DNA from: an uncultured bacterium
Lineage (GTDB): Bacteria > Patescibacteriota > JACMRA01
Assembly (NCBI GenBank): GCA_963704645.1
Contig: OY969926.1
Span: forward strand, 96,001 to 160,000
Reading direction: 5' to 3'
Length of the DNA stretch: 64,000 nt
The notes under the pieces are model-generated. The model saw only the letters and a program-made list of their open reading frames with translations. It was not told the DNA's origin and ran no database searches. Positions 1 to 64,000 of this stretch are shown here, piece after piece (the stretch's first letter is position 1; every line of letters starts with the position of its first letter). Position numbers and translations under genes: made by a program.

Positions 1-300
1 TCTTGCGACTTCATTATAGCCGAACGCTTACATGCTATAATTATTGCCACGGTCTTAAACGTTCCATCCATTCCTTTGATGTACGACCCTAAAGTTGTTA
101 GCTTGGCCAATTATCTTGGCCTTGAAGATTTTGCTGTTGATGTAAACAAAGCTTTTACACCAGAAGAATTAGGTAAAAAAATAAACTTGCTTCAAGAATA
201 TTTCACCGAAACAAAACAACATATTCAACAACAATACATGAAGCTGAACAACCAAGATAAAAATTATTTTGACCAACTTATAAATAAGCTAGGTTTATAA
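1..300 (+). CDS. Polysaccharide pyruvyl transferase family protein, 3' part (runs off window)
   Basis: Frame 1 open from base 1: CDFIIAERLHAIIIATVLNVPSIPLMYDPKV matches the family's RLHxxI...P...YDPKV C-terminal motif. Confidence 0.8.
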   Translation, partial: SCDFIIAERLHAIIIATVLNVPSIPLMYDPKVVSLANYLGLEDFAVDVNKAFTPEELGKKINLLQEYFTETKQHIQQQYMKLNNQDKNYFDQLINKLGL

Positions 301-335
301 AAATGAATTAAATACTAAGCCGACCTTAATATAGT

Positions 336-3300
336 ATGTTCAACCAAGAAAAAGATACTTCTCCTAAACCAGAACAAGAAACGCAGTCTCATAGAATTGA
401 GTCTGTAAAAAATAGTGGTATCTCTAATAATTCCCAAAGCGAAAGTAAAAGCTCTTCCACAGCTCAAGCTTTGGGCAACAAATGGAGCGAAATAATGAAG
501 ATGCCCTCTGGCCAAGAGTTGTTAATGGTAATGCAAAATGGTGTAATAAGAACAGCCAAAAACCTTAAACAAAAGCTATTCACTAAAAAGGCAGCTAAAC
601 GTAACATAAAAACAATTTTAACTTCTCACTATGTTTGGGTTTTTGTGTTTGGAGTACTTTTAAATAGCTTTATTTTTAGAGGAGTATTAGCAAGCTACCC
701 ACAAATTTTAGCTGGAGATGTATTGGTTGGGCCAGAAGAATTGGTACCTATAACAGATTTCAATACTCAGTACATAGACCAACAGCTTAACCCATTTTCA
801 GTTTTAACAGACAACTACGAATTTAGAGTTAGGTATTCTTTATTAACTACTTGGACTAGGTATTATTTAGCTTTACCACTTGTTGGTTTAGTTGGGCTAA
901 ATGCCGCTTCCTTAACCATAATTTATGCTGCAATTTACAAGTTGCTTAAACATTTGTTCAAAATTGATAGAAGACAAAATCTGTTAGATGAAAATATAGA
1001 AGCAGATAGTAGTGGTGTTGAACATAGCCTTGGTAGCAGGACGCACAAAACTTTACCTAAACTGCATACCAGCTATTATACACATTTTCAAACTAATAAT
1101 TCAAAATTTAATAGCAATTCTTCTAAACTAAACAAAAGCAGTGCAGAGCTTCATTCTGAAAACTCTAAAATTTACTTAGAATCTCAAACCCACACTGAGC
1201 GTAGACAACTAGCAAATTTTAACATTGTACCCAAAGAGTTTATAATACTTGCCTCTTTAGTTGGGGCAATGTTAAGTTATTTCATTTTACTTTACGCCAA
1301 AATTACCCACTTCTATACCTTAATTTTTGGATTTAGTTTATTTAGCTTAGCGGTTAGCTTCTTAATAATTTTGTTACTTAACTTTAATAATCAAACAAAG
1401 AAAGAAAGAAATTTTTCGGTTATAGCTGTAATTTTGCTTACTGTTTTTAACCCTGCCACTCATTACGTAATTTTAACCGTTTTTGTTGGTGGAATTTTAT
1501 TGTTCTTTAGTTTGGTTTCTAATACTATAAATATTTTAAAATATAAAGGTCTTTGGAAACAAGAGCTAATTAAATCTGGTTATATTTTAACAGCCATTGT
1601 TAGCAGTGCCTCTTTTTACCTTGCTTATTACTTTATTTACATAACAACATTTAACAAATTTAGCGTTTCAGAATACGTTTTTATTACAAATAATTTAATT
1701 AGATACGCCTCTTCCGATATTTTACAAATTATATCTTTACAAACTGGTTCCATTTTAGATTTTTACTACTACGGCAACTATCAAATTAGTCCACCAGAAA
1801 GCCGTTTGTTTAATATTTTTTACAGTTTAGCCATTCCTGCAATATTCTTATACAGCCTTTTTAAATACAAATCTAATAAAAAACTTTTTAGCTTAAGTTC
1901 TGCCGTCATAATTATTTCAGCAGTAGCAATATTTTTTGCTTTTGGTTTTGAAAACCCCTACTCCGCACACAATTTAACTGCTCAAATTTTACCAGCTTTA
2001 AATAACAGTCCAAGTTTTATTAATAATACTTTAATTCAGTTAATTTCTACTTTCTTTTTAGTTTTACGTTTTCCACACAGATTCTTGTTTATTTACGAAT
2101 TAATGGTGTCTATTGGTTTTGGCATATTTAGTGTTATAATTTTGCAAAATTTAAACAAGTTTTATAATTTCAACCAAACCATTTTTAAACACACAATTTT
2201 AGTTTTAATTGGAACAATTCTAATGCTGCCTTTTTTTTATGGAGCAAATGTTTCTGAAACTTTATTTACAGGAAACTACAATGGATTTTTCAGCAACTAC
2301 ACAGTTCCTCAAGATTTAAAAGATATTAAAGAATATCTAGCTAATAGCAAGGATGGTGGAAAAGTTATAATTTTACCCACTACAGAAGCTCCATTTAGAG
2401 TCACATCTGATGTAAATGGAAATCAAATAAGAGTTATAGATAAATTCTTTTTGTATTACCTAAATTATCCCGGCCAGTATTACGGATTAAGTGCAGACAT
2501 TGAGTATAAAAATAACTATTTCTTACTTTATTTATCAGCCAAGGAAAACTTAGATTGGTTTAATTTTCTAAGAAATAAAGATATTGAATACGTATTAGTA
2601 AATAAGACCCAAAAAATTAAAGATGGTTATAGCAATTTAAATGATATAGAGCAAAATTTAAAAGATGGTACAGACGAAATTGTTAGCCAAGGTTTAGCTA
2701 CAAAGGTAGTTTCTGGTGAATATTTTGATTTAATAAAAATTAATAAAGAATATGTTCCTGAAAAAACTTTGCTATTTTTAAATGACGATTGGCAAAATGT
2801 TAAAGACAGTTTAACAAAAAACATGGTCGATTACCCAGACAACAGTGTATACAATATATCTAAAAGAATTTGTACAGAGCAAAAATTTGATGTTTTAGGC
2901 AATGTTGAAAAAACAATTGAAGACTTAAATATTTTGTGCAATAAATCTATCTTAGACTATAATTCTAGGTTAACCCCGTTCAGCAAAACAGTACAATCTA
3001 CCAACGATTTCATCTCCAATATTTTTAGTATGATTGCCACTTCACAATCTACTAAAGTTAATATTTATAACACTTTAAATTCTATAAACCCTGGAACATA
3101 CAACGCCTTGGGCAGAGAAATATTATTTATAGATAACAAAGATGACACTTTAAACTATAATTTTTCTGTGAAAGACAATGGTAGTTATTCTATAGATGTT
3201 AGGGCCAGAGCTGCTAATGCTAAAGTTGAATTTACTATTTACGATGAGGAAAACAATATTAAATACCAAACTAAGCAAGATTTAATAGATGAAGCAAACT

Positions 3301-3530
3301 ATGTTAACAGCCAAGACGATGTAGTTTTAAACAATTTTAAATATTACAATTTGGCCGAAAACTTAAATTTAGAAAAGGGAAATTATTTAGTAAAACTAAC
3401 AAAAGTAGACAACCAACCCATTGGTGTAGACAGCATTTCTTATTACACCGCTGGCCAGCTAGACAATATAAAAAACCAATATCAAATTACCCAAAAAGAC
3501 ACAGATTTATATGAATTTGTTAAGAAGTAA
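336..3530 (+). CDS. Large multi-TM protein, GT-C-like glycosyltransferase with a soluble C-terminal beta-rich domain
   Basis: About 12 hydrophobic segments, LRFPHRF motif, KVIILP...DIEYVLVNK domain typical of YfhO/AftD-like proteins. Confidence 0.55.
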   Translation: MFNQEKDTSPKPEQETQSHRIESVKNSGISNNSQSESKSSSTAQALGNKWSEIMKMPSGQELLMVMQNGVIRTAKNLKQKLFTKKAAKRNIKTILTSHYVWVFVFGVLLNSFIFRGVLASYPQILAGDVLVGPEELVPITDFNTQYIDQQLNPFSVLTDNYEFRVRYSLLTTWTRYYLALPLVGLVGLNAASLTIIYAAIYKLLKHLFKIDRRQNLLDENIEADSSGVEHSLGSRTHKTLPKLHTSYYTHFQTNNSKFNSNSSKLNKSSAELHSENSKIYLESQTHTERRQLANFNIVPKEFIILASLVGAMLSYFILLYAKITHFYTLIFGFSLFSLAVSFLIILLLNFNNQTKKERNFSVIAVILLTVFNPATHYVILTVFVGGILLFFSLVSNTINILKYKGLWKQELIKSGYILTAIVSSASFYLAYYFIYITTFNKFSVSEYVFITNNLIRYASSDILQIISLQTGSILDFYYYGNYQISPPESRLFNIFYSLAIPAIFLYSLFKYKSNKKLFSLSSAVIIISAVAIFFAFGFENPYSAHNLTAQILPALNNSPSFINNTLIQLISTFFLVLRFPHRFLFIYELMVSIGFGIFSVIILQNLNKFYNFNQTIFKHTILVLIGTILMLPFFYGANVSETLFTGNYNGFFSNYTVPQDLKDIKEYLANSKDGGKVIILPTTEAPFRVTSDVNGNQIRVIDKFFLYYLNYPGQYYGLSADIEYKNNYFLLYLSAKENLDWFNFLRNKDIEYVLVNKTQKIKDGYSNLNDIEQNLKDGTDEIVSQGLATKVVSGEYFDLIKINKEYVPEKTLLFLNDDWQNVKDSLTKNMVDYPDNSVYNISKRICTEQKFDVLGNVEKTIEDLNILCNKSILDYNSRLTPFSKTVQSTNDFISNIFSMIATSQSTKVNIYNTLNSINPGTYNALGREILFIDNKDDTLNYNFSVKDNGSYSIDVRARAANAKVEFTIYDEENNIKYQTKQDLIDEANYVNSQDDVVLNNFKYYNLAENLNLEKGNYLVKLTKVDNQPIGVDSISYYTAGQLDNIKNQYQITQKDTDLYEFVKK

Positions 3531-3576
3531 AAGTCTAAAAACAATCCAAAGCCAAACATTAGCAACAAAGGATGGC

Positions 3577-9382: not shown

Positions 9383-11650
9383 CTACTCCTCATCAGAAAG
9401 TGTATAAACATCCCTTGGTTTAGAGCCATTTTGCGGCCCCACTACGCCCTCTTCTTCTAGTTGCTGAATAATTCTAGCCGCCTTTGGGTAGCCTATTCCC
9501 ATCATTTGCTGTAAGAAAGAAGCCGAAGCTTTTTGGTATTGAACAACCAGGTTCTTTGCTTCTATGTAAACATCATCTTGAGCGTCTTCATCGTTGCGGT
9601 TAACCATTCCGGGAACATTAATTTTAACCTTGGGAGTTTCTAAAACTTTTAAATCTAGGTTGCTAAAATTATCGTTATCTTCTGCTAGACGTTTTAAATA
9701 TTCTACACATTTCTTAACCTCTTCATCGGAAACGTTTGGACCTTGAAAACGTATAGCAGCCATAGAATTTGGGTTCATAAATAAACCGTCTCCCTGCCCT
9801 AACAATTTTTCAGCTCCACCTTGATCTAAAATAACTCTGGAATCTATTTGAGAAGCCACAGCAAAAGCAATTCTGGAAGGAACATTTGCCTTAATAAGCC
9901 CAGTAACAACATGCGTATCAGGGCGCTGAGTACCCAATACTAAGTGAATTCCTACAGCTCTAGACATTTGGGTTAAACGTACAATAATTGGCTCTACTTC
10001 TGCCTTAGCCATCATCATTAAATCTCCTAGTTCGTCTATTACAAAAACTTGATATGGCAAACTTTCTAAACCTGTTAATTTAGCTAGTTTATTATAATCG
10101 GCAATATTACGTTTTGCGTGTTGTTCCAGCAATTTATAGCGTCGTTCCATTTCTAAAACTGTCCATTTCAAAGCATTAATAGCCTTGTCTGCGTCTGTAA
10201 TTACTGGGGCAAGCAAATGTGGAACTTTATCATAAAGTTTAAGCTCTACCCTTTTCATATCAACTAAAATAAGTTGAAGTTCCGAGGGCGAATAACGATA
10301 CAATAAACTTAGCAATAACCCGTTAATCCAAACAGATTTTCCACTTCCAGTAGACCCAGCTACCAACAAATGAGGCATCTTAGACAAGGCAAAAATAACA
10401 TTGTTTCCCGCTACATCCTTTCCCATTGCAATAGCCAATTCATCGGAAAAATTAAGGAATTTATGGGTTTGCAAAATATCTCGCAAAAGCACCATACTTT
10501 TTTGCTTATTAGGAACCTCTACACCCACCAAACTTTGCCCATTTACAGGTGATTCAACTCTAATATTGTTGGTAGCTAAAGCCAAGGCTAAATCTCTTTG
10601 TAGGGCATCTATTGCAGAAAGACGAACACCGTTAGCTGGTTTTAAAGTGTATTGGGTTACAGTAGGCCCAACTGAAACATCTCCCATTTCTACACTAATA
10701 CCAAAATGAGCCAAAGTTTCTTTAATAGTTTTTTTGTTTCCTTCAATATCACCAGGTTCAACTTTTGTATGGTTTTCACGAAGAATGTCGAAGGGCGGAA
10801 GCTTCCAATCTACCAAACTTTCGGCTGGCTGCATTTCTAAAATATCTTTTTCAGAACCAGCGAAACTAAACTTTGGTTTAGCCGTTTTTGTTGAGGAAGA
10901 AACTGGCCTGGCTTGAACATCAATAACATCGGAATTTGCACCAGAATTTCTACTTACTTTTTCATTAATCTTAGGATCAGACTTAGAAGCTGGAACATCT
11001 ACTGAACCAAATTCCTTAAAGTTTTCCGAAGGCCTGTCTTCAGCATTATTTGCTATATTGGAAATTGGTGTAGTGCTAGGGTTTTTCCAAACCTCAAAAA
11101 TGTCTGGAATAAAATCCCAAAATTCACCGGGATTTTTTAAAGTGTGTTTTAAATTTTCCAAAAACTGAGCAAAGGTTAAATTAGAAACCAAGAAAAACCC
11201 GAATATTCCTATACAAGCAATTATAAAAGCTCCACCAATTAGCCCGAAATAGCCCAAACTAACTGGGTAAATAAAATAGCCAAAAAGCCCTCCACCTTTT
11301 TCTACATCGGCCGGTGTTCTAACTTGCATTATTAAGCTTAAAAAGCCGTTCAAACAAGCAGCCAAAAAGAAAAAGCCCCAAGCAAGGCGGCTATTAACAT
11401 CTGTTACCAGCTGGTTGTTACGTTGAAGCCTAATTAAAATTATTCCCATAAAAAAGAAAATAATTGGCAAAATAACCGAACCTCTTCCTAAAAATATTCC
11501 TAAAAAAGCCCCAATAACCCTACCGAAATTACCAGCCAATCCAAAAATACTTAAATAAGTTAAAATACCAACAGCGAAGCTGGCCACAATAGAAAGTGTA
11601 ATTTTTGTATTTACATCTAGGTCTGGTAAAAGTTTAGGCCATTTCATCAT
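9383..11650 (-). CDS. ftsK: DNA translocase FtsK/SpoIIIE
   Basis: N-terminal TMs, PHLLVAGSTGSGKS, VIDELGDLMM, TQRP, gamma domain IGYPKAARII. Confidence 0.97.
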   Translation of the reverse strand: MMKWPKLLPDLDVNTKITLSIVASFAVGILTYLSIFGLAGNFGRVIGAFLGIFLGRGSVILPIIFFFMGIILIRLQRNNQLVTDVNSRLAWGFFFLAACLNGFLSLIMQVRTPADVEKGGGLFGYFIYPVSLGYFGLIGGAFIIACIGIFGFFLVSNLTFAQFLENLKHTLKNPGEFWDFIPDIFEVWKNPSTTPISNIANNAEDRPSENFKEFGSVDVPASKSDPKINEKVSRNSGANSDVIDVQARPVSSSTKTAKPKFSFAGSEKDILEMQPAESLVDWKLPPFDILRENHTKVEPGDIEGNKKTIKETLAHFGISVEMGDVSVGPTVTQYTLKPANGVRLSAIDALQRDLALALATNNIRVESPVNGQSLVGVEVPNKQKSMVLLRDILQTHKFLNFSDELAIAMGKDVAGNNVIFALSKMPHLLVAGSTGSGKSVWINGLLLSLLYRYSPSELQLILVDMKRVELKLYDKVPHLLAPVITDADKAINALKWTVLEMERRYKLLEQHAKRNIADYNKLAKLTGLESLPYQVFVIDELGDLMMMAKAEVEPIIVRLTQMSRAVGIHLVLGTQRPDTHVVTGLIKANVPSRIAFAVASQIDSRVILDQGGAEKLLGQGDGLFMNPNSMAAIRFQGPNVSDEEVKKCVEYLKRLAEDNDNFSNLDLKVLETPKVKINVPGMVNRNDEDAQDDVYIEAKNLVVQYQKASASFLQQMMGIGYPKAARIIQQLEEEGVVGPQNGSKPRDVYTLSDEE

Positions 11651-11702
11651 TTGGAAACTGAAAGTATTACACCATTTTGGCAAGGCTTTATAAAGTTACC
11701 CA

Positions 11703-11827: not shown

Positions 11828-12073
11828 CTAAAATCCAAAATAGGTTTGAACAGCCTTTCTCAAACGATCATCACAAATTCCCTTGCCTGTGAAGTTGTTA
11901 ACAACAGCGGACTGGATATGTGCGATCCAAGTTGAATCATAGTCTCCAAAGTTTTCCGAAATATAATTGTTTATATCATCAATCCTTAGCTCAGAAGAAT
12001 TATTATAGTCTAAGGATTGTCTACTTTCCCTCCCGCATTGTGGAATGGTTTTATTTGGAATTCTATGATTCAT
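11828..12073 (-). CDS. Hypothetical protein (about 81 aa)
   Basis: ORF fills the gap, has its own terminator, no recognisable motif. Confidence 0.45.
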   Translation of the reverse strand: MNHRIPNKTIPQCGRESRQSLDYNNSSELRIDDINNYISENFGDYDSTWIAHIQSAVVNNFTGKGICDDRLRKAVQTYFGF

Positions 12074-12255
12074 GCTTACCCCATACAAAAACTGAGTTTG
12101 TATTTATTTTTATATATTTTTTAGAAAGTTTGGCAAGTAGAAGTTGTTTATCTAACTTAATCTACAAAAAAATAGATATTCAACTTAGTAAAAAAACTAA
12201 ACAATTTTATTTTTGGTTGAATTGTTTAGTATTATTATGATTCTTCAATGCCTTT

Positions 12256-21257: not shown

Positions 21258-21348
21258 GGAGAGGTGACTGAGTGGTCGAAAGTACCTCACTGCTAACGAG
21301 ACGTCCCTTCAACAAGGACCCAGGGTTCGAATCCCTGCCTCTCCGCCA
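21258..21348 (+). tRNA. tRNA-Ser(GCT)
   Basis: Acceptor stem GGAGAGG/CCTCTCC, CT-GCT-AA loop, long variable arm, TTCGAAT, CCA. Confidence 0.9.
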
Positions 21349-21376: not shown

Positions 21377-21452
21377 GGATTCGTAGCTCAGTCGGTAGAG
21401 CAATGGACTTTTAATCCAGTGGTCGTGGGTTCGATCCCCACCGAATCCACCA
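21377..21452 (+). tRNA. tRNA-Lys(TTT)
   Basis: Cloverleaf, CT-TTT-AA loop, CCA. Confidence 0.95.
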
Positions 21453-23663: not shown

Positions 23664-23739
23664 GCCAAATTAGCTCAGTTGGTAGAGCAACGGTTTTGTA
23701 AACCGTAGGTCGTTGGTTCGAACCCTACATTTGGCTCCA
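23664..23739 (+). tRNA. tRNA-Thr(TGT)
   Basis: Cloverleaf, ACGGT-TT-TGT-AA-ACCGT, CCA. Confidence 0.95.
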
Positions 23740-25943: not shown

Positions 25944-26027
25944 GCCCAGATGGTGAAATGGTAGACACACTAGCCTTAGGAGCTAGCGCCGCAAGGTATG
26001 AGAGTTCAAGTCTCTCTCTGGGCACCA
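25944..26027 (+). tRNA. tRNA-Leu(TAG)
   Basis: CTAGC-CT-TAG-GA-GCTAG, variable arm, CCA. Confidence 0.95.
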
Positions 26028-26240: not shown

Positions 26241-29200
26241 TTATACTAGGCTAACTGTTGTGGCAGTGTTACCATTACTAGCTCCAATCTGACCTTTAAT
26301 GGCTACAGACGCCGATGCATTACCTGTAGCAACCCCACTACAATTTACATTACTTCCAGTTGTAGAGCAAGAGCCTGTGAAACCTCCTCCAATGCTTAAT
26401 TTAAAACTAGCAGGAAGAGTTTTACCAGCTGGCAATGTAAAGGAACAGCTAACTGTGCTATTAGCTACTAAAACTAGCCCTCCTGGAGTGCAGTTTACAC
26501 TTAGGCTAGATAAATCTGATATAGATAAACTTGAACTGGTGTTAGAAAAATTAACATTAGCTATACTTATTATGTTTTTAATTCCATAACTATCTACAGC
26601 TTCAACTTCCACAACTTGTATGCCACTAATTCCAACTGGAACGTAGCTTAAAGCACTTCCGCCAACACTAGCCACTTCGTTTCCATCCACTCTTAATCTT
26701 ATTGCAATAATTGTTTTACCTGAAGCACCTATTGTGGTTGCACTAGCGGTTATAGTTGCAGGTGCATTTCCTCCAGCAGTTAAGTTTGAACTAATGACTG
26801 GCTTGTTATTTTGTTCAGCTATTTGATCTTGTTGACTTGTTTCCGTGGGAAGAATACAATAACCACCTTTGTTATTCAAAGACTCGGTAGCCTTAAGCCA
26901 GTTAGGCTGCAGGGGGAATTCTGAAATTGGTTCGGCGCAAATTTTTTCTTCAGAATTTTGAGGTAGTGTTCTACCTTCAACTGCCAATTTTCCAGTTAAC
27001 ATATCAATTTTAACTTTTCTTAAAATTACAGCCGATCTATTTTGAAAAATATTCTGAGCTCTTGGGTTATATTCTGGGTTATTTACTCTAGAACCTGCTT
27101 CTTGCAATGCCTTTAGCTGATTAGGAGTTAGCAACTCTGATGTGCCAGAATCACTTAGAAAACCTGTCTTTGAGTCAATTTTAACACTTTGCAAACCTTC
27201 TCTTGAACATTGCTTCTTTTCTCTACCTTGGTGAATTGCTGTCATTAATCTCTTCCAAACAAAGGCGTTAGAGTTAGAGGCACTGGCAGTGTCTTTCATG
27301 GGTGTATTATCTGTATTTCCAACCCACATTGTCATGGTGAAATAAGGACTAAATCCAACTGTCCAAGTATCTCTTACATCGTTAGAAGTTCCAGTTTTTG
27401 CAGCTATTCTCCAGCCGTCGATTTCTAAGTTTCTTCTAAAAGATCCCCAAACAGCAGGATCTCTAGCACCGTAGTCACTCATAATATCGCAAACCTGACG
27501 AGCAATTAATGGGTCTATGGCTTTGTCTACACGTGGATAAATATCATCGCATGTCTTAGCACATAAATCTACATTAGTTTTTGTATCAATTACGTTTTTA
27601 AATGGTCTTGCCGTTCTTAAGTTTCCATCTTGTGCAAAAGTGCTCATACCTGTTGCGTGTGAAAGCATAGATACTTCACATCCTCCTAATGCGGAGGCGA
27701 GCGTGCACCTATCACGGTAGGCAGAACTTGCCTGAGACAAATCATCACATTTTTCTCCATCGGCGTTAGGTTGGCAAGGGTATTTAACTCCAATTCTATC
27801 TGTTAAATTAAATACCTCATTAATACCTTGCGTTCCGTTAGGTACATTACCTTGTCCGGAAGCCAGATAAGCAGCTTTTACAGCAGGAATATTTAAAGAG
27901 TTTTGCAATGCATACCTTATACTTACTGGACCAGAAAAAGTTCCACTAAAGTTTTTAGGAACATAACCTCCACCAAAATCGGTTCTGCTATCTAGCAAAA
28001 TTGTTCCCGGGTTAAAGTTTTTTTCTAATGCAGCTGCATAAACGTAAGGTTTATAACTACTACCTGGTTGTTGAGGTGAAGTAGTAATGTTTACTTGGCC
28101 ATCAATTCCTTCATTATTATAATCAGCAGAGCCAATCATAGCTAAAATTTCACCAGTTGGACCATCTAAAATAGTAGAGGCAATATTATTAGCTCCGCTA
28201 TCTAGAACATATTGCTTATAATTTTCATTAATTATATTCTGTGCAGTGTTTTGCATGTCTGGGTCTAGAGTGGTAACTATTTTGTAGCCTCTTGTGTATA
28301 AAGCCTGTTCAGAAATGTTAAACTTACGTAGTTCCAATGTAATATAATCTTTAAAGTGTGGATATAAAACATCAATTCTGTTTGGTATAAATACAACCCT
28401 ACCCAATTCTCTTAAAGCTCCAGCCTGATTTTTATCTGTTGCTACAGATACCTCTACTTGTTGTAATTTGGTTAATTCGTCGTCTGTTTTAATGAATGGA
28501 TCTACATTGTCACCTTCCAATTTATTTTGCCTTAACTTAGTGAGACAAGTATTCTTTCTAGATTCGTATACCTTCCATGCCGATGTGTCATATTTACCTA
28601 TACTTCCATTGTAAACTGATGGTTGCTGAACTAAACCAGCAAGAAAACAAGCTTCAACAGTGGTAATATCTTTTACATCTTTACCGTAATAACTTTTGGC
28701 TGCCTCTTGCACTCCGAATGCATTCCTACTAAAACCTACTTGGTTTAAATACAATTCAAGAACCTGACTTTTATTTACAACTTGGTTTAATTTTACAGCA
28801 GTAATTAGTTCTTCAACTTTTCTTTGTGGAGTTTTAGCATCGTTGCCTGTAAAGTTTTTTACTGTTTGTTGGTAAAGTCCACTACCTCCACGGCAATCTT
28901 CTTTAGACTGAGTTATAATAATTTTTGCACAATCTACTATTGCTCCACCTATGTTAGACCACGGAATTCCATCTGGGTTATAGTTGAACCTTTCGTCTTC
29001 CAAACCAATTATGGCCAATTGCATATTTTTAGGAATACAATTGTTGCTTTTATCTTCAACACCGTCTTTAATTGGGCAAAGACCTACTACTTCCCTTTTC
29101 CCTTCATCAAAAAACTTAAAGAGTTCGGTTTTACCATCTCTAGCATAAACAATACTACTTTCAATTTGCTGAGTATTCAGCGGCAAACTATTATTATAAA

Positions 29201-29630
29201 TATCTATAGCCCAAGCTGCAACACCACTTGCTAAAACAATTCCAAAAACTAAAGCTATTATTAAGAATAGACCAAAACTGCGACCAAGTTTTTTCCAAGA
29301 AAAACCAAATTTTGTTTTTAAACTATCAATGTTTAAACTCCATGTACCTTTGCCTTTTTTACCGATACTGGATAATTCTGACACAGAAGCGACAGAACTA
29401 GTTTTATTAAACTCGTGAGAAACTTTGGAACCTGCCTTTACCACAGTAGCCGACCTGGCAATAATATTTCCATCTTCTTGAAGAGACAAGCCAGACAAGT
29501 CTGCATCTTCTTGTGGTAAAGTAATTACACTTTTATTTAAAACTTGATTGCTGCTTTCTTGGTGCGTTTCTTCTTGGCTTAAGTTGGCGTTTTCTTTATT
29601 AGAATGGTGTTTAGAAACTCTACTGGGCAT
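26241..29630 (-). CDS. Class A penicillin-binding protein (PBP1A-like) with C-terminal Ig-like domains
   Basis: GT51 motifs EDERF, GGS..QQ.VKN, RK..E, LELYLN; transpeptidase SSYK, SLN, KTG. Confidence 0.93.
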   Translation of the reverse strand: MPSRVSKHHSNKENANLSQEETHQESSNQVLNKSVITLPQEDADLSGLSLQEDGNIIARSATVVKAGSKVSHEFNKTSSVASVSELSSIGKKGKGTWSLNIDSLKTKFGFSWKKLGRSFGLFLIIALVFGIVLASGVAAWAIDIYNNSLPLNTQQIESSIVYARDGKTELFKFFDEGKREVVGLCPIKDGVEDKSNNCIPKNMQLAIIGLEDERFNYNPDGIPWSNIGGAIVDCAKIIITQSKEDCRGGSGLYQQTVKNFTGNDAKTPQRKVEELITAVKLNQVVNKSQVLELYLNQVGFSRNAFGVQEAAKSYYGKDVKDITTVEACFLAGLVQQPSVYNGSIGKYDTSAWKVYESRKNTCLTKLRQNKLEGDNVDPFIKTDDELTKLQQVEVSVATDKNQAGALRELGRVVFIPNRIDVLYPHFKDYITLELRKFNISEQALYTRGYKIVTTLDPDMQNTAQNIINENYKQYVLDSGANNIASTILDGPTGEILAMIGSADYNNEGIDGQVNITTSPQQPGSSYKPYVYAAALEKNFNPGTILLDSRTDFGGGYVPKNFSGTFSGPVSIRYALQNSLNIPAVKAAYLASGQGNVPNGTQGINEVFNLTDRIGVKYPCQPNADGEKCDDLSQASSAYRDRCTLASALGGCEVSMLSHATGMSTFAQDGNLRTARPFKNVIDTKTNVDLCAKTCDDIYPRVDKAIDPLIARQVCDIMSDYGARDPAVWGSFRRNLEIDGWRIAAKTGTSNDVRDTWTVGFSPYFTMTMWVGNTDNTPMKDTASASNSNAFVWKRLMTAIHQGREKKQCSREGLQSVKIDSKTGFLSDSGTSELLTPNQLKALQEAGSRVNNPEYNPRAQNIFQNRSAVILRKVKIDMLTGKLAVEGRTLPQNSEEKICAEPISEFPLQPNWLKATESLNNKGGYCILPTETSQQDQIAEQNNKPVISSNLTAGGNAPATITASATTIGASGKTIIAIRLRVDGNEVASVGGSALSYVPVGISGIQVVEVEAVDSYGIKNIISIANVNFSNTSSSLSISDLSSLSVNCTPGGLVLVANSTVSCSFTLPAGKTLPASFKLSIGGGFTGSCSTTGSNVNCSGVATGNASASVAIKGQIGASNGNTATTVSLV

Positions 29631-32154: not shown

Positions 32155-32169
32155 AGAAATTTAAGACAA

Positions 32170-32514: not shown

Positions 32515-32745
32515 TTGTAGCTAAAGTATTAGGGTTGATATAAGAAATTATACTAAAAGATATTTTCAAAACGAAAAAGTTTAAAGCGAAGAGGGTTTTG
32601 TAAGAGTTTGTGCTTTTCCAAAGGAAGAGTATTTTTTAATCAAAATTAATATTTTATAAAATTAAGTTTAGTTATCTATAAAGTATGTCATATTGGTTAA
32701 ATGTCTTTAAAGGTTGATTTGTTAAGTATCAACATGTCTGTAATT

Positions 32746-32934: not shown

Positions 32935-33059
32935 AAAAATACCCTAAAAAAATAAACTTTTTAAAAAGTGTTGTGATTTCTTAGGCGAGCAAAGATAAAC
33001 AAATTTGTTAGAGGTTGTCAAATATATTCCAGTTAACTCTGTATTCTTTTATTTATAAT

Positions 33060-34256: not shown

Positions 34257-34343
34257 ATTTCAAAGTTAAAAGACTACCAAGATTAAACCAATATACATTA
34301 ATCCCTTTGTTGAAACTGAATTATGCGACTTGATATTCTATCA

Positions 34344-34844: not shown

Positions 34845-34851
34845 AAGTTTT

Positions 34852-35523: not shown

Positions 35524-35588
35524 ATTTTTAATTTTGTTTATAGGAGTTGCAACACCTTTTTAATTAGCTCAACATTTTCACAAAACAC

Positions 35589-36206
35589 CTACCACTCCCC
35601 AATAGACATTCTTTCTTTTCCTTTGAAGTTTTCAATGTAGCCTAACCATTTTTTATCTCCGTAACCCCTACTGTTTGGAGTGCAAGTAACAAATGATGTA
35701 GTATAACTTGGTTTATTAAAATATTCTTTTATATTATTATTAGTTTGTTGAATCATATCCTTTTTTTCCTTTAAACTTAAATTGTCCCAAATACTTTTAT
35801 CTTGAACATAAATTAAAGCGTCACCTGAATTTATATTTGTAGGTATAATATAAGTATTTGCATTTACCAACAAAAAATTGTATTTAGTAAGAGAGAGATT
35901 AATTTTTGTAGTTAACTCTTTAGGTATGGCTAAGCTTGTAGAAGTATATTCATTAAGGTCTACAATACACAAATCACTTAGCTTAAAAGGCATGCCCCCT
36001 CCTTCACTAGTTAAATAATCTATGTTGGTACTTATTCCAACAAACTCAGGATCAAATAATATCTGGTAAGTTTCGTAGACTTTTATTCCCCCTCTATATA
36101 CTAATATGCTTACAGGAATTATTAGTATTGCAATAAGTATTTTTAATCTTAGGCTAAGTTTAGTGAAGTTGATTAGTCTAACTTTTTTAAAGAAGGGTGT
36201 AGTCAT
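35589..36206 (-). CDS. Single-TM hypothetical protein, paralog 1
   Basis: Starts 2 nt after the PA14-protein stop; paralog of 34852-35523. Confidence 0.8.
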   Translation of the reverse strand: MTTPFFKKVRLINFTKLSLRLKILIAILIIPVSILVYRGGIKVYETYQILFDPEFVGISTNIDYLTSEGGGMPFKLSDLCIVDLNEYTSTSLAIPKELTTKINLSLTKYNFLLVNANTYIIPTNINSGDALIYVQDKSIWDNLSLKEKKDMIQQTNNNIKEYFNKPSYTTSFVTCTPNSRGYGDKKWLGYIENFKGKERMSIGEW

Positions 36207-36208
36207 AT

Positions 36209-39200
36209 TTAATTTTTTAATCTGGTTGGAACTGTGTTACAAGTCACATCATCCCAATAAAGTCTATCGATGGGAACTCGAGGTACATACTCATTACAGA
36301 CGTTATGTGTCTTACTAAATCTATTTTTGTATTCATTGGCAAAAGTTGAAACGCTTACTCTGTTTTCTCTTAGATCTTTGCCTAATTTTATGGCTTCATA
36401 ACTAGAAAATAAATCCATCCAGCTTGAACCATTCTCTGCAGGGTCTGGTAAAGTCCTATAAAACTGTGGAGGTACAAAAGTATTCTTTTTATAAGCTTCG
36501 TGGAACATTAACCACCATTCATTGGATCCAAATAAAGGTAATGGTAAGTTTACTCCAATAAAAGGATAACCAACCGAGTTTTGGCTATCACCTGCATACG
36601 CAAAGTTTATTCCTCCACCAGTATTATGCCATGCAAGGTTAGATTTAGTCCCCTCATCATCAAAAATATAATTGTAACCAGAAGAGCCATGAAATTCCAC
36701 TATATGGTAGGCTTCTTCATATACTGTACCTGCATTACACCCATCTATACTTATTATGCAATTTTTACCGGGTCTATTGGCAAAAACTGTTCCTAGATCG
36801 TAAATAAATCTGTCCTTGTTATTGGTACTTTGCCAAGATAGAGCAATAAAATTAGCACTTGCTACGTAAGCTTCCATTGTATTTTTACAGTAGGAATTCA
36901 TTAAAGTTCTTTCATTTAAAACAAATACAGCATTTAAAAACAATCTTTTTGGCTCATCTGAAGTATACCAATTAGAGTTTTTCTTATTATTTAGAAAAGA
37001 TTGTAGGTAGTTTAAATCTTGGCAGGACAGAAAAGTTGTTGATGGGTTTCGACCTGTCGTTGCTGTCCATATTGCTAAAACCATTTTAGCATGAAACTGA
37101 ATTTCCGTATCACACGATGCTGTACACTCTCTCTTTGCTAAATAATTATACAACCCATCATTAATTAAACTTTCTGCCTGCGAAAGATTCTTATTAAATC
37201 TCCCCCAAACACTACCCCACCCACCAATCTTAACATTGCCCGCTCTGTCTGTAATATTTATACTAAACTCAATATTCTGAGAGCTAGATACTTTGGTAAG
37301 ATCAATGTTGGCTGAATAAAGATAATCCACATTGTCGTTGTATTCTCTACCAAGGAATAATAATTTACTGTCGTAGTAGGCGTAGAAATCTACATAGCTT
37401 ACAAGACTTTGTGGTGTAGATAAATCCCAAGCCTCAGCTTTTACTGTAAAGTTGTTTCCTGTAATTGTTTGATAGTTTGCACTTGGGTTTATTATTCTTC
37501 CATCAGGTTTTATACTGTCTGTATACTCCCACCTCAAAGCAAAAGCGGCCTGTCCAGCATCTTCCCTAAACTTAACTTGAAGAAGATACCAACCTTCAGT
37601 AAGATATCTGTCTGTTCTGGTTTCAGAGCAACACCCAGGCTGATTAATTATCCTAGTTCCGTCTAATATAATTTCAGTTCCGTCATCAGCCTTTGAAATG
37701 AAAGTGAATGTGGAGGCCGGGAAATAATGCATTTTGGTAAAGTAACCAGAAAAGTTATCTGTTGGAAGGGAGCTTATTCCTGAAGGTGAGTTTAGGTAAG
37801 TTCCTGAAAAAGAATTTATTCCTCCCTTAGTTAAGTTTACAGTAGGATTATTATTCCCCCAGTTATCATCCCAAAAGTCCCCTAGTCTGGTTACTGGTTT
37901 TACAGGTATTCCTGTTTGATATTTGTTAGGGTAGAATTCTACACACCAGTCTGAGAAGTTATTATTGGTTTTACATGCTAGTTCCCAAGAAAGGGTTAGT
38001 TTAGCACTTCCTGTTTTTTCTTGATAGTATACTTCCATTACGTGCCAGCCTGTTGGTAGATCTATTCTGGTGTCAGTATCTGCGGCTGGGTTTTCCCATT
38101 TATCTATTACAATGTTTCCATTAATAACTAATTTCATTCCATCGTCGTAACCTGTATAGAATTTGTAATGACCTGATTCAAACCATTGTTTTTTACTAAA
38201 TTTAGCTGAGAAGTAATCAGAGGGGGTTACTCCTCCAGGGTTACCATAACCCCAATCTTTGTTAATGTAATCTGTTCTTCCAAGAGAATCTCTAGCAGGA
38301 TAATAGTTTTCAGAATAAGACATTATTCCAGAATAAGGATTGTTGTTGTAATATTGAGCACACCAGTTATCATAGGGAAGTTCTGGGTAGTTACATTCGT
38401 TGTATAAGGGAGTTCCTGTTATGGCTAGGGGTTGGACTGTGGGGGTGGTGGTAGCAAGGGAAGTGGTTGGAGCAAGTGTAGTTTTAGTCACTAAGGATTG
38501 AGTGGCTTCAGAAGGCGGAATTATTGGAGTTTGAGTTACTGGTTGAGGAGTATCAATAATTACTGGAGAAGTTACTGGAACCTGTGGAAGTGCTGGTTTA
38601 GGTGTAGGTATTGTAGGCCTAATAGGAGTTTGAGGCTCTGGTCTTTTCCATTCTTCCAGTCTCTTTTGTTTTTCTTGATGGGTTAGCGGAGTTTCTGGCT
38701 GAGTTGGAGGAATTGTTGGCTGAGGAGTTGGCGTAGTAGGTGGCTCTGGATTACTTGGAGGCTCAGGTTCGCCCTCACCTTCACAAAGTCCCTTCTCTAC
38801 TTTCAGAACAATGTCGTTAAAGTCATAGTCTAACCAATCTTCAAAAGAAAGTGAGTATGCATTGTTTCCTAGGTTTACTTGTTTAACTCTGCTGGAATCT
38901 GTAGAAAGAATGGTTTTAGGTGACTGTGAGTAGAAGGGAGTTATTTTAAGAATTAGATCTTGGCCTTGGGTGAAGTTACCAAGTGTAGGAGAGGAATTTA
39001 TTCCTCCTGTGGCATTTTGAACATCTGAAACCTTCTTGGTTGTTAAATCATTGTAGTTATCTGAAATTAGTTTGTCTGAACCGTCTTCGTTTACTCCTAC
39101 AAGGTAAAGTTTACCTCCTGCTCCATCATTACTTATTCTTGAAATGTAATAACAGCCTGTGCTTTGGATGCTTAGTTTGTTTGATGGAGTCTCAGGTGGT

Positions 39201-39457
39201 TCTTCCTGTGTAGCCAAGTCCTCTTGATCTTCTTCATTGGAAGAGTTAAGTTTAGATTGTCCTAACTCTTCAGTTTTAGGCCTATCTTTAGCATATTTAA
39301 TTTTAGCTGGGTCGTAATTATTAAAACTGGTTTTAGCACTTGTTGAAATTGAGAGTATTGGAGTTAATAGATTTAATATTATTAAAAAGGAGATAACAGT
39401 AAAAGAGAGAGTTTTCTGCCAATTTTGTTTTAAAAAGTTTAATTTATCTTTGTTCAT
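36209..39457 (-). CDS. Secreted PA14-repeat protein with Pro/Thr linker, Ig-like domain and unknown C-terminal domain
   Basis: Signal/TM; SFEDWLDYDFNDIVLKV; two PA14 units (DYFSAKF..DDGMKL..W; DNFSGYF..ADDGTEI..W). Confidence 0.8.
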   Translation of the reverse strand: MNKDKLNFLKQNWQKTLSFTVISFLIILNLLTPILSISTSAKTSFNNYDPAKIKYAKDRPKTEELGQSKLNSSNEEDQEDLATQEEPPETPSNKLSIQSTGCYYISRISNDGAGGKLYLVGVNEDGSDKLISDNYNDLTTKKVSDVQNATGGINSSPTLGNFTQGQDLILKITPFYSQSPKTILSTDSSRVKQVNLGNNAYSLSFEDWLDYDFNDIVLKVEKGLCEGEGEPEPPSNPEPPTTPTPQPTIPPTQPETPLTHQEKQKRLEEWKRPEPQTPIRPTIPTPKPALPQVPVTSPVIIDTPQPVTQTPIIPPSEATQSLVTKTTLAPTTSLATTTPTVQPLAITGTPLYNECNYPELPYDNWCAQYYNNNPYSGIMSYSENYYPARDSLGRTDYINKDWGYGNPGGVTPSDYFSAKFSKKQWFESGHYKFYTGYDDGMKLVINGNIVIDKWENPAADTDTRIDLPTGWHVMEVYYQEKTGSAKLTLSWELACKTNNNFSDWCVEFYPNKYQTGIPVKPVTRLGDFWDDNWGNNNPTVNLTKGGINSFSGTYLNSPSGISSLPTDNFSGYFTKMHYFPASTFTFISKADDGTEIILDGTRIINQPGCCSETRTDRYLTEGWYLLQVKFREDAGQAAFALRWEYTDSIKPDGRIINPSANYQTITGNNFTVKAEAWDLSTPQSLVSYVDFYAYYDSKLLFLGREYNDNVDYLYSANIDLTKVSSSQNIEFSINITDRAGNVKIGGWGSVWGRFNKNLSQAESLINDGLYNYLAKRECTASCDTEIQFHAKMVLAIWTATTGRNPSTTFLSCQDLNYLQSFLNNKKNSNWYTSDEPKRLFLNAVFVLNERTLMNSYCKNTMEAYVASANFIALSWQSTNNKDRFIYDLGTVFANRPGKNCIISIDGCNAGTVYEEAYHIVEFHGSSGYNYIFDDEGTKSNLAWHNTGGGINFAYAGDSQNSVGYPFIGVNLPLPLFGSNEWWLMFHEAYKKNTFVPPQFYRTLPDPAENGSSWMDLFSSYEAIKLGKDLRENRVSVSTFANEYKNRFSKTHNVCNEYVPRVPIDRLYWDDVTCNTVPTRLKN

Positions 39458-39622
39458 ATAGTAATCTGTACCTGAATTGGAAATGATCAATTCTTCAGAT
39501 AAAGCTTATATATGTCTAAGATATTTTGTGTTCATTTTTGGACTGAGTTGTTAGGATGGGGAGAGGTGGGGAATTCGCTTAATACAATAATTAGAAAAGG
39601 ATGGTGTAAAAATTTATAACAT

Positions 39623-51450: not shown

Positions 51451-52788
51451 TTATACAGCCTGAATCACTGCCCCGCCCAGCATTCTTGTACCATTATAAA
51501 AAACTATACTTTGGCCTGGAGCAATAGCTCTAACAGCCTCATTAAAAACTACTTTATATCTTCGTATGGACTCTCCACTCTCTGAACCTGTCCCCAATTC
51601 CAAAAAACATTGCACAGCTTGTTGATGGTAACGTACTTGAGCTGAAAGTATAAAATTATCTTGCAATTTATTCTCTAATATTTGTTGAATCAAAGAATCT
51701 TCTACCAGCCAATTAAAATCATCTACATAGCAAAACGTAGCATCTAATATTTCATCTTGTTCGGCATGAGCTACAACAACTTGATTGTTATTTACATCAA
51801 CTTTCTGCACAAACCACGGACCTCCACCTAAGCCTAGTTTATTTCTTTGCCCAATTGTGTATAAATAAGCACCTAAATGTTGACCCAAAACTTTTCCATC
51901 TAAAGTTACAATATCACCCTTCTTTTCACCCAAAGATTGCAGAAGAAGTTCACGAAGTGGTGTTGTACCAATAAAACACAAACCTTGAGAATCTTTTTTA
52001 GCCGCAGTAATTAAGTCATTTTCAGAAGCCAATTTTCTAACCTCATCTTTAGTAGTAAAATCTCCAATTGGAAACAACATCATATTCAATTCCTCCCTAG
52101 GAATTCTCCATAAAAAATAACTTTGATCTTTATTAAAATCATCTCCACGATGAAGTTCCACAGCAAAATTATTTTCTGAAATAATATGCTTGGAAATCGA
52201 ACTATACGGGTCATTGTTGTTAGATTGAGAGTTCTGTTGGTCAACATGAGTGCTTGACTCTATATTTTCAACTCTTTTAGCATAATGTCCTGTTGCTACA
52301 AAATCTGCCCCTAGCTTTTTAGCTTTCTTTAAAAATAAACCAAATTTTATTACCGAATTGCACATTACATCAGGATTTGGAGTTAAACCATTTTGGTAAC
52401 TTTGAAGCATGTATTCCACAACTTTTTTCTTGTATTCTTCTTCAAAATCCCAGACAAAAAAAGGAATTTCTAGTTTGGCCGCAACCAAAGAAGCATCTAA
52501 GGAATCTTGCTCCCAAAAACAACCGTATAAATTTCTGTCTACTCCCAACTCATCTAAAGCTTGAATGGACCAGCATTTCATGAAAACTCCAACAACTTTA
52601 TAACCTTCCTGCTTCAATTTCAAGGCAGCCACAGAGGAATCTACACCACCACTCATCATTACAAAAACAGTTTTGGTGGAATTTTTGGAGACTAAGTTTC
52701 CAGTTGCAGACCCATCATTATTTAAAAGCGATGTTTCACTTCCTCCCAATTTTTGATTATTTAAGATTGTTGAATCTGTTTTAGTCAT
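51451..52788 (-). CDS. mnmA: tRNA 2-thiouridylase MnmA
   Basis: MSGGVDSSV, TPNPDVMCN, ATGHY, KDQSYFL, DSQGLCF, YTIGQR, APGQ. Confidence 0.97.
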   Translation of the reverse strand: MTKTDSTILNNQKLGGSETSLLNNDGSATGNLVSKNSTKTVFVMMSGGVDSSVAALKLKQEGYKVVGVFMKCWSIQALDELGVDRNLYGCFWEQDSLDASLVAAKLEIPFFVWDFEEEYKKKVVEYMLQSYQNGLTPNPDVMCNSVIKFGLFLKKAKKLGADFVATGHYAKRVENIESSTHVDQQNSQSNNNDPYSSISKHIISENNFAVELHRGDDFNKDQSYFLWRIPREELNMMLFPIGDFTTKDEVRKLASENDLITAAKKDSQGLCFIGTTPLRELLLQSLGEKKGDIVTLDGKVLGQHLGAYLYTIGQRNKLGLGGGPWFVQKVDVNNNQVVVAHAEQDEILDATFCYVDDFNWLVEDSLIQQILENKLQDNFILSAQVRYHQQAVQCFLELGTGSESGESIRRYKVVFNEAVRAIAPGQSIVFYNGTRMLGGAVIQAV

Positions 52789-52811
52789 TATAATCCGATT
52801 TCAACACAGCC

Positions 52812-56468: not shown

Positions 56469-56545
56469 TGGTGGGTGTGAGAGGATTCGAACCTCTGACC
56501 TCTTCATTATCAGTGAAGTGCTCTAACCAGCTGAGCTACACACCC
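56469..56545 (-). tRNA. tRNA-Ile(GAT)
   Basis: GGGTGTGTAGCTCAG...CTTCA-CT-GAT-AA-TGAAG...TTCGAAT...CCA. Confidence 0.96.
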
Positions 56546-63149: not shown

Positions 63150-63154
63150 AATTA

Positions 63155-63529
63155 TTATTTTACTTTTGCTTTAGCTTTTGTCAAAATTTCGGAAGCTGGT
63201 TTAAGCATTACTTTCAATCTTGTTGTTCTTCTTCTAATTTTGAAGGCAGAACCTCTGGCTCTAGGTACAAACCTATATAGTTTTTTATCTTCCTCAGCTA
63301 CAATTTCTGAAACTACAAAAGTTTTGTATTCTGCTTCAGTAATTTTTAAATTGTTTGCAGCATTTTTTAGTAAATCGAAAAATTTCTTGGTTTTACCTTT
63401 TTGCAAATTCTTTAATTGCTCTAAAGCTTGTTCTAAATTTAAACCACGAATAACGTTCAAAACTAATCTAGATTTTCTAGGAGAGTAATTAATAGTTGTA
63501 CTAGCGGTAGTTCTTTTGGCAACTGACAT
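63155..63529 (-). CDS. rplV: 50S ribosomal protein uL22
   Basis: SPRK.RLV...IRG, PRARG. Confidence 0.95.
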   Translation of the reverse strand: MSVAKRTTASTTINYSPRKSRLVLNVIRGLNLEQALEQLKNLQKGKTKKFFDLLKNAANNLKITEAEYKTFVVSEIVAEEDKKLYRFVPRARGSAFKIRRRTTRLKVMLKPASEILTKAKAKVK

Positions 63530-63530
63530 A

Positions 63531-64000
63531 TTATTTTTTAATTCTTCGTTTTATGATAAATTTACTACTCTCTTTTTTCTTATTTCTAGTTTTAACACCT
63601 AAAGCATGTTTGCCCCAAGGAGTTTTAGGATAAGCCATACCAATAGAGTTTGAAGCCTCTCCACCACCATGAGGGTGATCAACAGGATTCATAACTTTTC
63701 CTCTAACAGTAGGTCTAATGCCCATATGTCTACTTCTTCCAGCCTTACCAATTCTTACTTGGTTATGGGCATCGTTAGACATTCTACTAATTACACAGTT
63801 ACAAGTTTCTTGGAATTTTCTAATTTCGCCTGAAGCTAATTTTAAAGTAACATATCCGTCGTCTTTAGCAGTAACTGTAGCGTAAGCACCAGCAGATCTT
63901 AATAATTTAGCACCTTGATTAGGCTTGAATTCAACTTGAGAAACAGCAGTACCTACAGGAACAAATTTTAATTGCACTTGGTTACCATCCTGAATTTCGT
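63531..64000 (-). CDS. rplB: 50S ribosomal protein uL2, 3' part (runs off window)
   Basis: RPTVRG..MNPVDHPHGGGE, TPWG; frame open to the window edge. Confidence 0.97.
   Translation of the reverse strand, partial: EIQDGNQVQLKFVPVGTAVSQVEFKPNQGAKLLRSAGAYATVTAKDDGYVTLKLASGEIRKFQETCNCVISRMSNDAHNQVRIGKAGRSRHMGIRPTVRGKVMNPVDHPHGGGEASNSIGMAYPKTPWGKHALGVKTRNKKKESSKFIIKRRIKK

What the first reader, a model, noticed from the sequence alone, without database searches (positions are those of the whole stretch)
1..64000. TGA is absent both as a stop and as a sense codon
Seen: I read the stop codon of about 69 called CDSs; roughly 44 are TAA, 25 are TAG and none is TGA. This includes the IS transposase and the island genes. 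Long Gly- and Trp-rich ORFs are intact under code 11, so TGA is not in use as Gly (code 25) or Trp (code 4). Known: RF1 reads UAA/UAG, RF2 reads UAA/UGA, and Gracilibacteria/Absconditabacteria recoded UGA to Gly. Inference: this lineage may have lost or weakened RF2 and left UGA nearly unassigned, the intermediate predicted by codon capture. If TGA were 10% of stops, zero in 69 has p of about 0.001; at 5%, p is about 0.03, so low GC alone is not excluded.
Basis: partly seen in the sequence, partly recalled or inferred. Interest (0 to 1): 0.75.

Follow-up and report, generated by a model that had tools for sequence, protein, structure and literature searches.

The report
TGA: a rare but working stop
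This small, AT-rich candidate-phyla-radiation bacterium almost never ends genes with TGA, yet it keeps an intact release factor 2 and still uses TGA as an ordinary stop in a few conserved genes, so this is strong codon avoidance and not a changed or unassigned codon.

Summary
Of 61 non-overlapping ORFs of at least 80 aa, 36 end in TAA, 24 in TAG and 1 in TGA, and that one is a doubtful 106-aa ORF.

The interpretation does not hold.
- The 1.27-Mb genome (33.4% GC, Patescibacteria) has an intact prfB with SPF and GGQ motifs and no frameshift. It also has an intact prfA.
- No tRNA has a UCA anticodon, and tRNA-Trp(CCA) has a normal anticodon stem.
- Genome-wide, TGA ends 36 of 1029 crude ORFs (3.5%) and 2 of 148 genes with an orthologue in the sister species. 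TatD and a DegT aminotransferase stop at exactly the residue where the sister uses TAA.
- No credible in-frame TGA occurs in 308,218 homology-aligned codons.
- At this genome rate, zero TGA in about 60-69 genes is expected by chance (p about 0.1-0.4).

Some of the finding survives. TGA is about 6-fold rarer at stops than in non-coding DNA (3.5% against 20%), while TAG is enriched (38%). TGA is also about 3.6-fold below GC-matched members of the phylum. The trait is graded across the class (0-17.5%) and RF2 is retained in 24 of 27 class genomes. Verdict: the low extreme of a known continuum, of modest interest.

The parts
1..64000 (.). Whole window: 61 non-overlapping ORFs of at least 80 aa, with 36 TAA, 24 TAG and 1 doubtful TGA stop. 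GC is 29-36% along the window.
11920..12240 (+). The only TGA-terminated ORF left in the non-overlapping set (106 aa, GTG start). Probably not a gene.
   Evidence: No Pfam family; no tblastn hit in class or outgroup samples
52801..52803 (-). TGA five codons upstream of the ATG of mnmA (ORF 51451-52788). It aligns to a TGG in the sister species' longer upstream frame. This is leader sequence, not a sense TGA.
9383..11683 (-). FtsK/SpoIIIE gene: an example of a long conserved gene, intact under code 11, with no in-frame TGA.
26241..29630 (-). Class A penicillin-binding protein (1129 aa), intact under code 11.
56469..56545 (-). tRNA-Ile(GAU), one of five tRNA genes in the window. The others are Ser-GCU 21258-21348, Lys-UUU 21377-21452, Thr-UGU 23664-23739 and Leu-UAG 25944-26027. 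None reads UGA.

Best explanation
The organism uses the standard bacterial code. UGA is a genuine stop codon read by an intact RF2, but it is strongly avoided, ending about 1.4-3.5% of genes. UAA (58%) and, unusually, UAG (38%) carry almost all termination. The window shows no TGA stop because it samples about 60 genes from a genome with this low rate.

The avoidance acts at the termination site itself (inferred: purifying selection against UGA stops, or a preference for RF1-read stops). It is not caused by base composition. New TGA stops keep arising by mutation and are lost again, so none is shared between the two species of the genus.

The trait is quantitative. It varies from 0 to 17.5% among members of this small Patescibacteria class and is strongest in the window's genus.
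For: Shown:
- prfB and prfA are both intact, carrying SPF/GGQ and PAT/GGQ.
- RF2 matches the consensus at 78 of 80 columns that are at least 95% conserved among 119 homologues (median deviation per sequence 1, 90th percentile 2).
- RF2 is present in 24/27 class genomes and 376/401 sampled phylum genomes.
- Among 41 tRNAs there is no UCA anticodon, and tRNA-Trp(CCA) has a normal anticodon stem.
- TGA-ended genes with Pfam domains running to their C-termini include TatD, a class I/II aminotransferase, an HD_4 protein, a GT2 glycosyltransferase, DegT and a serine recombinase.
- TatD and DegT end at the same residue as their G001 orthologues, which use TAA.
- In 148 orthologue pairs, TGA occurs 2 times in G000 and 3 times in G001, never in both.
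- TGA makes up 20.0% of the three stop-type trinucleotides (TAA+TAG+TGA, both strands) in intergenic DNA and 21% in the 60 nt after stops, but only 3.5% of stops. TAG goes from 22.5% to 38%, and TAA from 57.5% to 58.5%.
- Internal TGAs in frames read with TGA as sense lie at gene boundaries or in antisense junk.
- There is no credible in-frame TGA in 977 HSPs covering 308,218 codons.
- rpoB, rpoC, prfA and prfB are read without internal stops.

Inferred: selection is the cause of the depletion at stops.
Against: - ORF sets are crude (longest ORF, greedy, no gene finder), so shares carry error. The 3.5% is an upper bound that includes spurious ORFs and one artefact, a sigma-70 ORF cut by a frame break.
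- Only 6 of 46 TGA-ended ORFs have a homologue in the class sample, against 77 of 200 random other ORFs. Many TGA stops are therefore in accessory, mobile or false ORFs.
- Relatives were sampled at only 25-212 kb each. Kin are not independent, so the Fisher p of 9e-14 is overstated.
- Selection against UGA stops is inferred from the contrast between stop sites and non-coding DNA, not shown.
- One RF2 substitution (V190A, 7 residues before SPF) is unique among 120 homologues and could affect function.
- The prfB gene lacks the autoregulatory frameshift, which in published surveys usually goes with high TGA use, not low (PMC12421855, passages).
Confidence: 0.85

Rival explanations
1. RF2 is present but weak or scarce. 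UGA termination is slow or leaky, so selection has moved stops to UAG and UAA. The lineage would then sit in the low-UGA state that codon-capture theory places before reassignment.
For: - TGA is 6-fold depleted at stops relative to non-coding DNA, while the RF1-specific TAG is 1.7-fold enriched.
- The same pairing of low TGA with high TAG is seen in the nearest genera sampled: G001, G002, G009.
- There is a unique V190A change next to the SPF loop.
- prfB has no autoregulatory frameshift.
- The best PrmC-like methyltransferase scores only 109+32 bits, against a cut-off of 199.
- The phylum has captured UGA at least twice: to Gly in class JAEDAM01 and to Trp in family JAKLIH01 (PMC13092985, passages).
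Against: - RF2 is conserved at 78/80 near-invariant columns and evolves at a median-like rate.
- It is kept in 24/27 class genomes.
- Conserved genes still rely on TGA.
- No expression data exist, because no RNA holder was listed.
- Low TGA use could be the cause of a low RF2 demand rather than its effect (argument of PMC8789281, passages).
Confidence: 0.3
2. Pure mutational or compositional effect: the low GC content drives TGA to TAA, with no selection specific to termination.
For: - Across bacteria, TGA use falls with GC (PMC8789281, passages).
- In my 18 outgroups the logistic slope is positive.
- The lowest-TGA class members are AT-rich.
Against: - TAG has the same GC content and is enriched to 38%.
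- TAA is used at its non-coding frequency (58.5% against 57%).
- TGA and TAG are equally common in intergenic DNA (5152 against 5779) and just downstream of stops (755 against 824).
- GC-matched outgroups use TGA at 7-25%.
Confidence: 0.08
3. UGA is recoded (Gly as in code 25, Trp as in code 4) or truly unassigned in this lineage.
For: No TGA stops in the window. The phylum contains recoded lineages (PMC13092985 and PMC8629427, passages).
Against: - RF2 is intact.
- There is no tRNA-UCA.
- There is no in-frame TGA in 308,218 aligned codons.
- Coding density does not rise when TGA is read as sense.
- TGA marks conserved C-termini.
Confidence: 0.02

Closest known systems
Acholeplasmataceae / phytoplasmas: Mycoplasmatota that keep prfB (PMC12421855, passages read)
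   Same: An AT-rich, reduced genome with low TGA stop use. prfB is retained without the programmed frameshift motif. Relatives in the same phylum have reassigned UGA.
   Different: A different phylum. Here I could not show that the class is sister to a recoded clade. That paper's suggestion that RF2 may be decaying is not matched here: RF2 is conserved at 78/80 near-invariant columns.
Flavobacterium johnsoniae, 7% RF2-specific stops, called 'unusually low' (PMC12421855, passage)
   Same: Standard code with RF2 present and very few TGA stops.
   Different: F. johnsoniae keeps the prfB frameshift motif. This genome has no such motif and an even lower share (about 1.4-3.5%).
Gracilibacteria/Absconditabacteria (GTDB class JAEDAM01), code 25, UGA=Gly (PMC8629427 and PMC13092985, passages)
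   Same: The same phylum, with small AT-leaning genomes. In both, UGA is essentially not used as a stop.
   Different: Those lineages lack RF2, have tRNA-Gly(UCA) and carry many in-frame UGAs. None of these three features is met here.
Family JAKLIH01, UGA=Trp in Patescibacteriota (PMC13092985, passages)
   Same: The same phylum, with UGA stops absent at gene ends.
   Different: JAKLIH01 lacks RF2, and two of its four genomes have tRNA-UCA. Here RF2 is present and there is no tRNA-UCA.
Bacteria with only a 4-bp anticodon-stem tRNA-Trp(CCA), which show reduced UGA stop use (PMC13092985, passage)
   Same: Lowered UGA stop use with RF2 retained, explained there by competition from a UGA-reading tRNA-Trp.
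   Different: The tRNA-Trp here is drawn by ARAGORN with a full-length anticodon stem, so that mechanism is not indicated.

Membership tests
Standard bacterial code (table 11) with RF1 + RF2 | RF2 gene with SPF and GGQ motifs | tested here: met
   G000:223682-224773; SPF at residue 197 and GGQ at 243. It scores 362 bits on TIGR00020 (cut-off 370), against 208 bits on the best RF1 model (NF001859; 202 on TIGR00019).
Standard bacterial code (table 11) with RF1 + RF2 | RF1 gene with PxT and GGQ motifs | tested here: met
   G000:617865-618938 (-); PAT and GGQ seen in the translation; 393 bits on NF001859.
Standard bacterial code (table 11) with RF1 + RF2 | TGA ends conserved genes at conserved C-termini | tested here: met
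   The TatD and DegT alignments with the G001 orthologues run to the last residue, and G001 has TAA there. Pfam domains reach the ends of these proteins.
Code 25 (UGA=Gly) | tRNA-Gly with UCA anticodon | tested here: not met
   ARAGORN finds 41 tRNAs, none with UCA.
Code 25 (UGA=Gly) | Loss of RF2 | tested here: not met
Code 25 / code 4 | In-frame TGA at conserved Gly or Trp positions of conserved proteins | tested here: not met
   977 HSPs covering 308,218 aligned codons show no credible case. rpoB, rpoC, prfA and prfB have no internal stops.
Code 4 (UGA=Trp) | tRNA-Trp(UCA), or a 4-bp anticodon-stem tRNA-Trp(CCA) as the sole tRNA-Trp | tested here: not met
   There is a single tRNA-Trp(CCA) with a full stem.
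Unassigned UGA (codon-capture intermediate) | No UGA codons left at gene ends or within genes, and no factor that reads UGA | tested here: not met
   36 crude TGA stops, of which at least about 10 are supported. RF2 is present.
prfB with programmed +1 frameshift autoregulation | In-frame TGA near codon 25 with CTT TGA slippery context | tested here: not met
   One open frame runs from the ATG, and the HMM match covers positions 3-349 of 353 without a stop. The motif wording is recalled from general knowledge and PMC12421855.

The most novel reading that the evidence does not exclude
The window's genus (and perhaps its nearest genera) is in the last phase of purging UGA by selection rather than by GC pressure. 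Stops have moved from the RF2-specific UGA to the RF1-specific UAG. RF2 would be kept only for UAA and for the last 1-3% of genes, many of them accessory or mobile. This would be a living example of the pre-capture state, in a phylum that has already captured UGA twice independently.
Probability: 0.15. Interest if true: 0.6.

Novelty: new member of a known kind. Interest (0 to 1): 0.3.

Why it matters
Annotation: this genome and its class should be called with table 11, not table 25 or 4, even though they belong to a phylum with recoded members and even though TGA stops are almost invisible in any one region.

Evolution: the class offers a graded series of TGA use (0-17.5%) at similar GC with RF2 retained. 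That makes it a usable natural system to ask two questions. Do release-factor balance or read-through cost drive stop-codon choice? How low can UGA use fall before RF2 becomes dispensable?

The contrast between stop sites (3.5% TGA) and adjacent non-coding DNA (20%) runs against the published generalisation that stop usage simply mirrors local trinucleotide content (PMC8789281, passages).

It does not provide evidence for a new genetic code or for an unassigned codon.

Tried and rejected
- The search for related loci with RF2 in genome contigs gave only one relative, titled 'uncultured bacterium', so it gave no taxonomy.
- The search for homologous proteins with the first window ORF hit a YfhO-like hypothetical family, not rpoB as I had guessed. 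It only hinted at Patescibacteria. The RF2 search confirmed 'Patescibacteria group' names. The listing of cluster members added no lineage name.
- I could not place the class relative to the recoded clades. In the 401-genome phylum sample, 25 genomes lacked an RF2 match at E<=1e-98. The five I tested (G144, G180, G196, G269, G102) have rpoB frames of 1074-1163 aa without any in-frame stop, so they are not evidently recoded. No code-25 genome was recognised in the sample, and no tree was built.
- One search was wasted by my own too strict E-value threshold (1e-300) and shows nothing.
- Tandem back-up stops after TGA: the next in-frame stop lies within 5 codons for 58% of the 19 TGA ORFs of at least 150 aa (about 11), against about 38% for TAA/TAG ORFs. 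The numbers are too small, so I make no claim.
- The -1 and +4 base contexts of TGA stops show nothing distinctive.
- RF3: no match over the cut-off; the best hit is EF-G. This was not pursued.
- Expression: no RNA holder was listed. No run holds this strain (the share of words is at most 0.13). The contigs laid do not bridge the sigma-70 frame break. A relative's contig reads in frame there.
They may already list this class.
Full report
**What the window is**

The window is G000:C1:96001-160000 of a single-contig genome of 1,272,640 bp with 33.4% GC. RF2 homologues carry the source name 'Patescibacteria group bacterium'. The genome belongs to a small class of 27 species-level genomes, with one order and two families, within that phylum. 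Window genes include FtsK, MetRS, a MurA-like EPSP-synthase-fold enzyme, GluRS/GlnRS, a class A PBP, PGK and MnmA.

**Observation**

A greedy non-overlapping set of ORFs of at least 80 aa in the window has 61 members: 36 TAA, 24 TAG and 1 TGA. The TGA ORF (window 11920-12240, 106 aa) has no Pfam family and no homologue in any sampled relative.

**Genome-wide counts**

- Raw ORFs of at least 300 aa: 232 TAA, 171 TAG, 8 TGA.
- Greedy set of at least 100 aa: 602 TAA, 391 TAG, 36 TGA of 1029 (3.5%).
- Greedy set of at least 200 aa: 14 TGA of 625 (2.2%).
- Genes with an orthologue in the sister species G001: 2 of 148 end in TGA (1.4%).

With these rates, zero TGA in 60-69 genes has a probability of roughly 0.09-0.4 (my arithmetic). 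The window is an ordinary sample of its genome.

**Is TGA a stop here?**

Yes.
- TGA-ended ORFs include proteins whose Pfam domains run to the C-terminus:
  - TatD, with profile positions 2-253 of 253 ending at residue 306 of 307;
  - a class I/II aminotransferase, whose TGA is followed directly by TAA;
  - an HD_4 protein;
  - a GT2 glycosyltransferase;
  - a DegT-family aminotransferase;
  - a serine recombinase beside a tRNA-Ala gene.
- TatD and DegT align to their G001 orthologues up to the last residue, and G001 uses TAA at that point.
- The three G001 TGA stops correspond to TAA in G000. TGA stops therefore turn over and none is shared.

**Is TGA ever sense?**

No evidence.
- ARAGORN finds 41 tRNAs and a tmRNA, with no UCA anticodon.
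- The single tRNA-Trp(CCA) has a full-length anticodon stem. The 4-bp-stem mechanism of PMC13092985 is therefore not indicated.
- When TGA is read as sense, the 279 internal TGAs of 152 ORFs cluster before true starts or just before the next TAA/TAG.
- The few mid-ORF cases are two genes that happen to share a frame, or antisense junk.
- Coding density does not change (0.85 against 0.85).
- I ran a small Codetta-like test: 2266 ORF proteins from relatives against the genome gave 977 HSPs and 308,218 aligned codons. It shows no credible in-frame TGA. Those listed are alignment ends, a 5' leader of mnmA, or spurious rRNA and antisense ORFs.

**Release factors**

- prfB (223682-224773, +) is one frame of 363 aa with SPF and GGQ. 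prfA (617865-618938, -) has PAT and GGQ.
- NCBIfam places them as RF2 (362 bits) and RF1 (393 bits), both just under the equivalog cut-offs, as do several class relatives.
- prfB has no internal TGA or frameshift.
- RF2 matches 78 of 80 columns that are at least 95% conserved among 119 homologues. The exceptions are G113E and V190A, the latter unique and seven residues before SPF. Two deviations is the 90th percentile of the set.
- RF2 identity to G001 is 61.6%, the 33rd percentile of orthologues.
- RF2 is found in 24 of 27 class genomes (the three misses are 64-79% complete) and in 376 of 401 sampled phylum genomes.
- A PrmC-like methyltransferase is present but scores below the cut-off. No RF3 is found.

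**Is the low share explained by GC?**

No.
- Intergenic trinucleotides on both strands are TAA 14805, TAG 5779 and TGA 5152 (57.5 / 22.5 / 20.0%). The 60 nt after stops give 1978 / 824 / 755.
- At stops the shares are 58.5 / 38.0 / 3.5%. TAA is used as expected, TGA is about 6-fold depleted and TAG is 1.7-fold enriched.
- In eight phylum outgroups with GC of 37% or less, TGA ends 81 of 590 ORFs (7-25% per genome).
- A logistic fit to 18 outgroups predicts 12.6% at this GC, with overdispersion 2.6.
- The ratio of stop share to intergenic share for TGA is 0.17 in G000 and 0.07 in G001. It is 0-0.71 in the other class members and 0.28-1.30 in outgroups.
- TGA under-use at stops is thus common in the phylum and extreme in this genus.
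- Within the class the TGA share ranges from 0/31 and 3/179 up to 11/72 and 10/57. The trait is graded and is not a property of the whole class.

**Caveats**

- ORF calling is crude.
- TGA-ended ORFs are less often conserved (6 of 46 with a class homologue, against 77 of 200 controls).
- Three of them are paralogues of a mobile-element-like family.
- One, the sigma-70 ORF at 1111590-1112747, ends in TGA only because of a one-base frame break. That break is absent from four relatives, where the gene is one frame of 724-739 aa.
- The true share of TGA stops in native genes is therefore nearer 1.5-2.5%.

**Mechanism**

Shown: UGA is a stop, RF2 is intact, and there is no decoder tRNA. Inferred: selection at the termination site disfavours UGA relative to UAG. 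Whether this reflects a low or weak RF2, a read-through cost, or RF1 abundance cannot be told from sequence.

Published context, from passages I read:
- TAG is usually about 20% of stops regardless of GC, and TGA rises with GC (PMC8789281).
- 7% TGA in F. johnsoniae is called unusually low.
- Loss of the prfB frameshift usually accompanies high TGA use.
- The exception is the Acholeplasmataceae, which keep prfB without the motif at low TGA use (all three from PMC12421855).
- Codon capture is the standard model for UGA reassignment in AT-rich clades, and two NCBI 'Gracilibacteria' with RF2 and no tRNA-UCA use UGA as a stop (PMC8629427).
- Patescibacteriota hold both a UGA=Gly class (JAEDAM01) and a UGA=Trp family (JAKLIH01) (PMC13092985).

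**Verdict**

The idea of a lost RF2 or an unassigned codon is refuted. What remains is a strong avoidance of UGA stops that GC does not explain, in a lineage with a standard code. That is a new member of a known kind and of modest interest.

Noticed in passing
G000:1155868-1155945 (outside the window); tRNA-CAU genes at G000:82329-82405 and 776258-776331: The genome has a tRNA-Ile with anticodon UAU, only two CAU tRNAs and no match to the TilS N-terminal family. AUA is therefore probably decoded without lysidine.
   Followed up: partly
G000:1111590-1113700 (outside the window), break near 1112706: The sigma-70 gene is split by a single extra base between regions 2 and 3. Four relatives have one open frame of 724-739 aa. 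In all of them the frame runs on into a P-loop (GxxGxGKT) segment, which suggests a sigma70-TsaE-like fusion. The break is probably an assembly indel, but no public run holding this strain was found to check it.
   Followed up: partly
G000:88358-89071, 1003298-1003945, 1164194-1164904 (outside the window): Three paralogous ORFs of 215-237 aa all end in TGA (one in TGA TGA) and hit the same place in a class relative (L148). They look like a small mobile-element gene family. By eye they carry an HxH motif like Y1 transposases, but there is no Pfam hit at 1e-3.
   Followed up: partly
G000:1004941-1008351 (-) and 471758-475726 (+): rpoB and rpoC are about 530 kb apart instead of forming the usual rpoBC operon.
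   Followed up: no
G000:1000133-1003297 (-): The leucyl-tRNA synthetase appears to carry an inserted segment. By eye it resembles a Nudix-type block in the middle of the protein.
   Followed up: no
window 32001-36000: This is the lowest-GC stretch of the window (28.7%). It holds a SAM-dependent methyltransferase (33015-34256) and is flanked by a 1093-aa PA14-domain protein (36209-39490).
   Followed up: no
class genomes G001-G037: Completeness estimates for this class are only 64-93%, and 87% for the single-contig 1.27-Mb G000, while other Patescibacteria in the sample mostly score 95-100%. The marker set seems to fit this class poorly.
   Followed up: no
G004 (class member), contigs C43 and C30: RF2 matches come as two pieces on different contigs (profile positions 203-350 and 12-168). 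This may be a fragmented assembly or a broken prfB in that genome.
   Followed up: no
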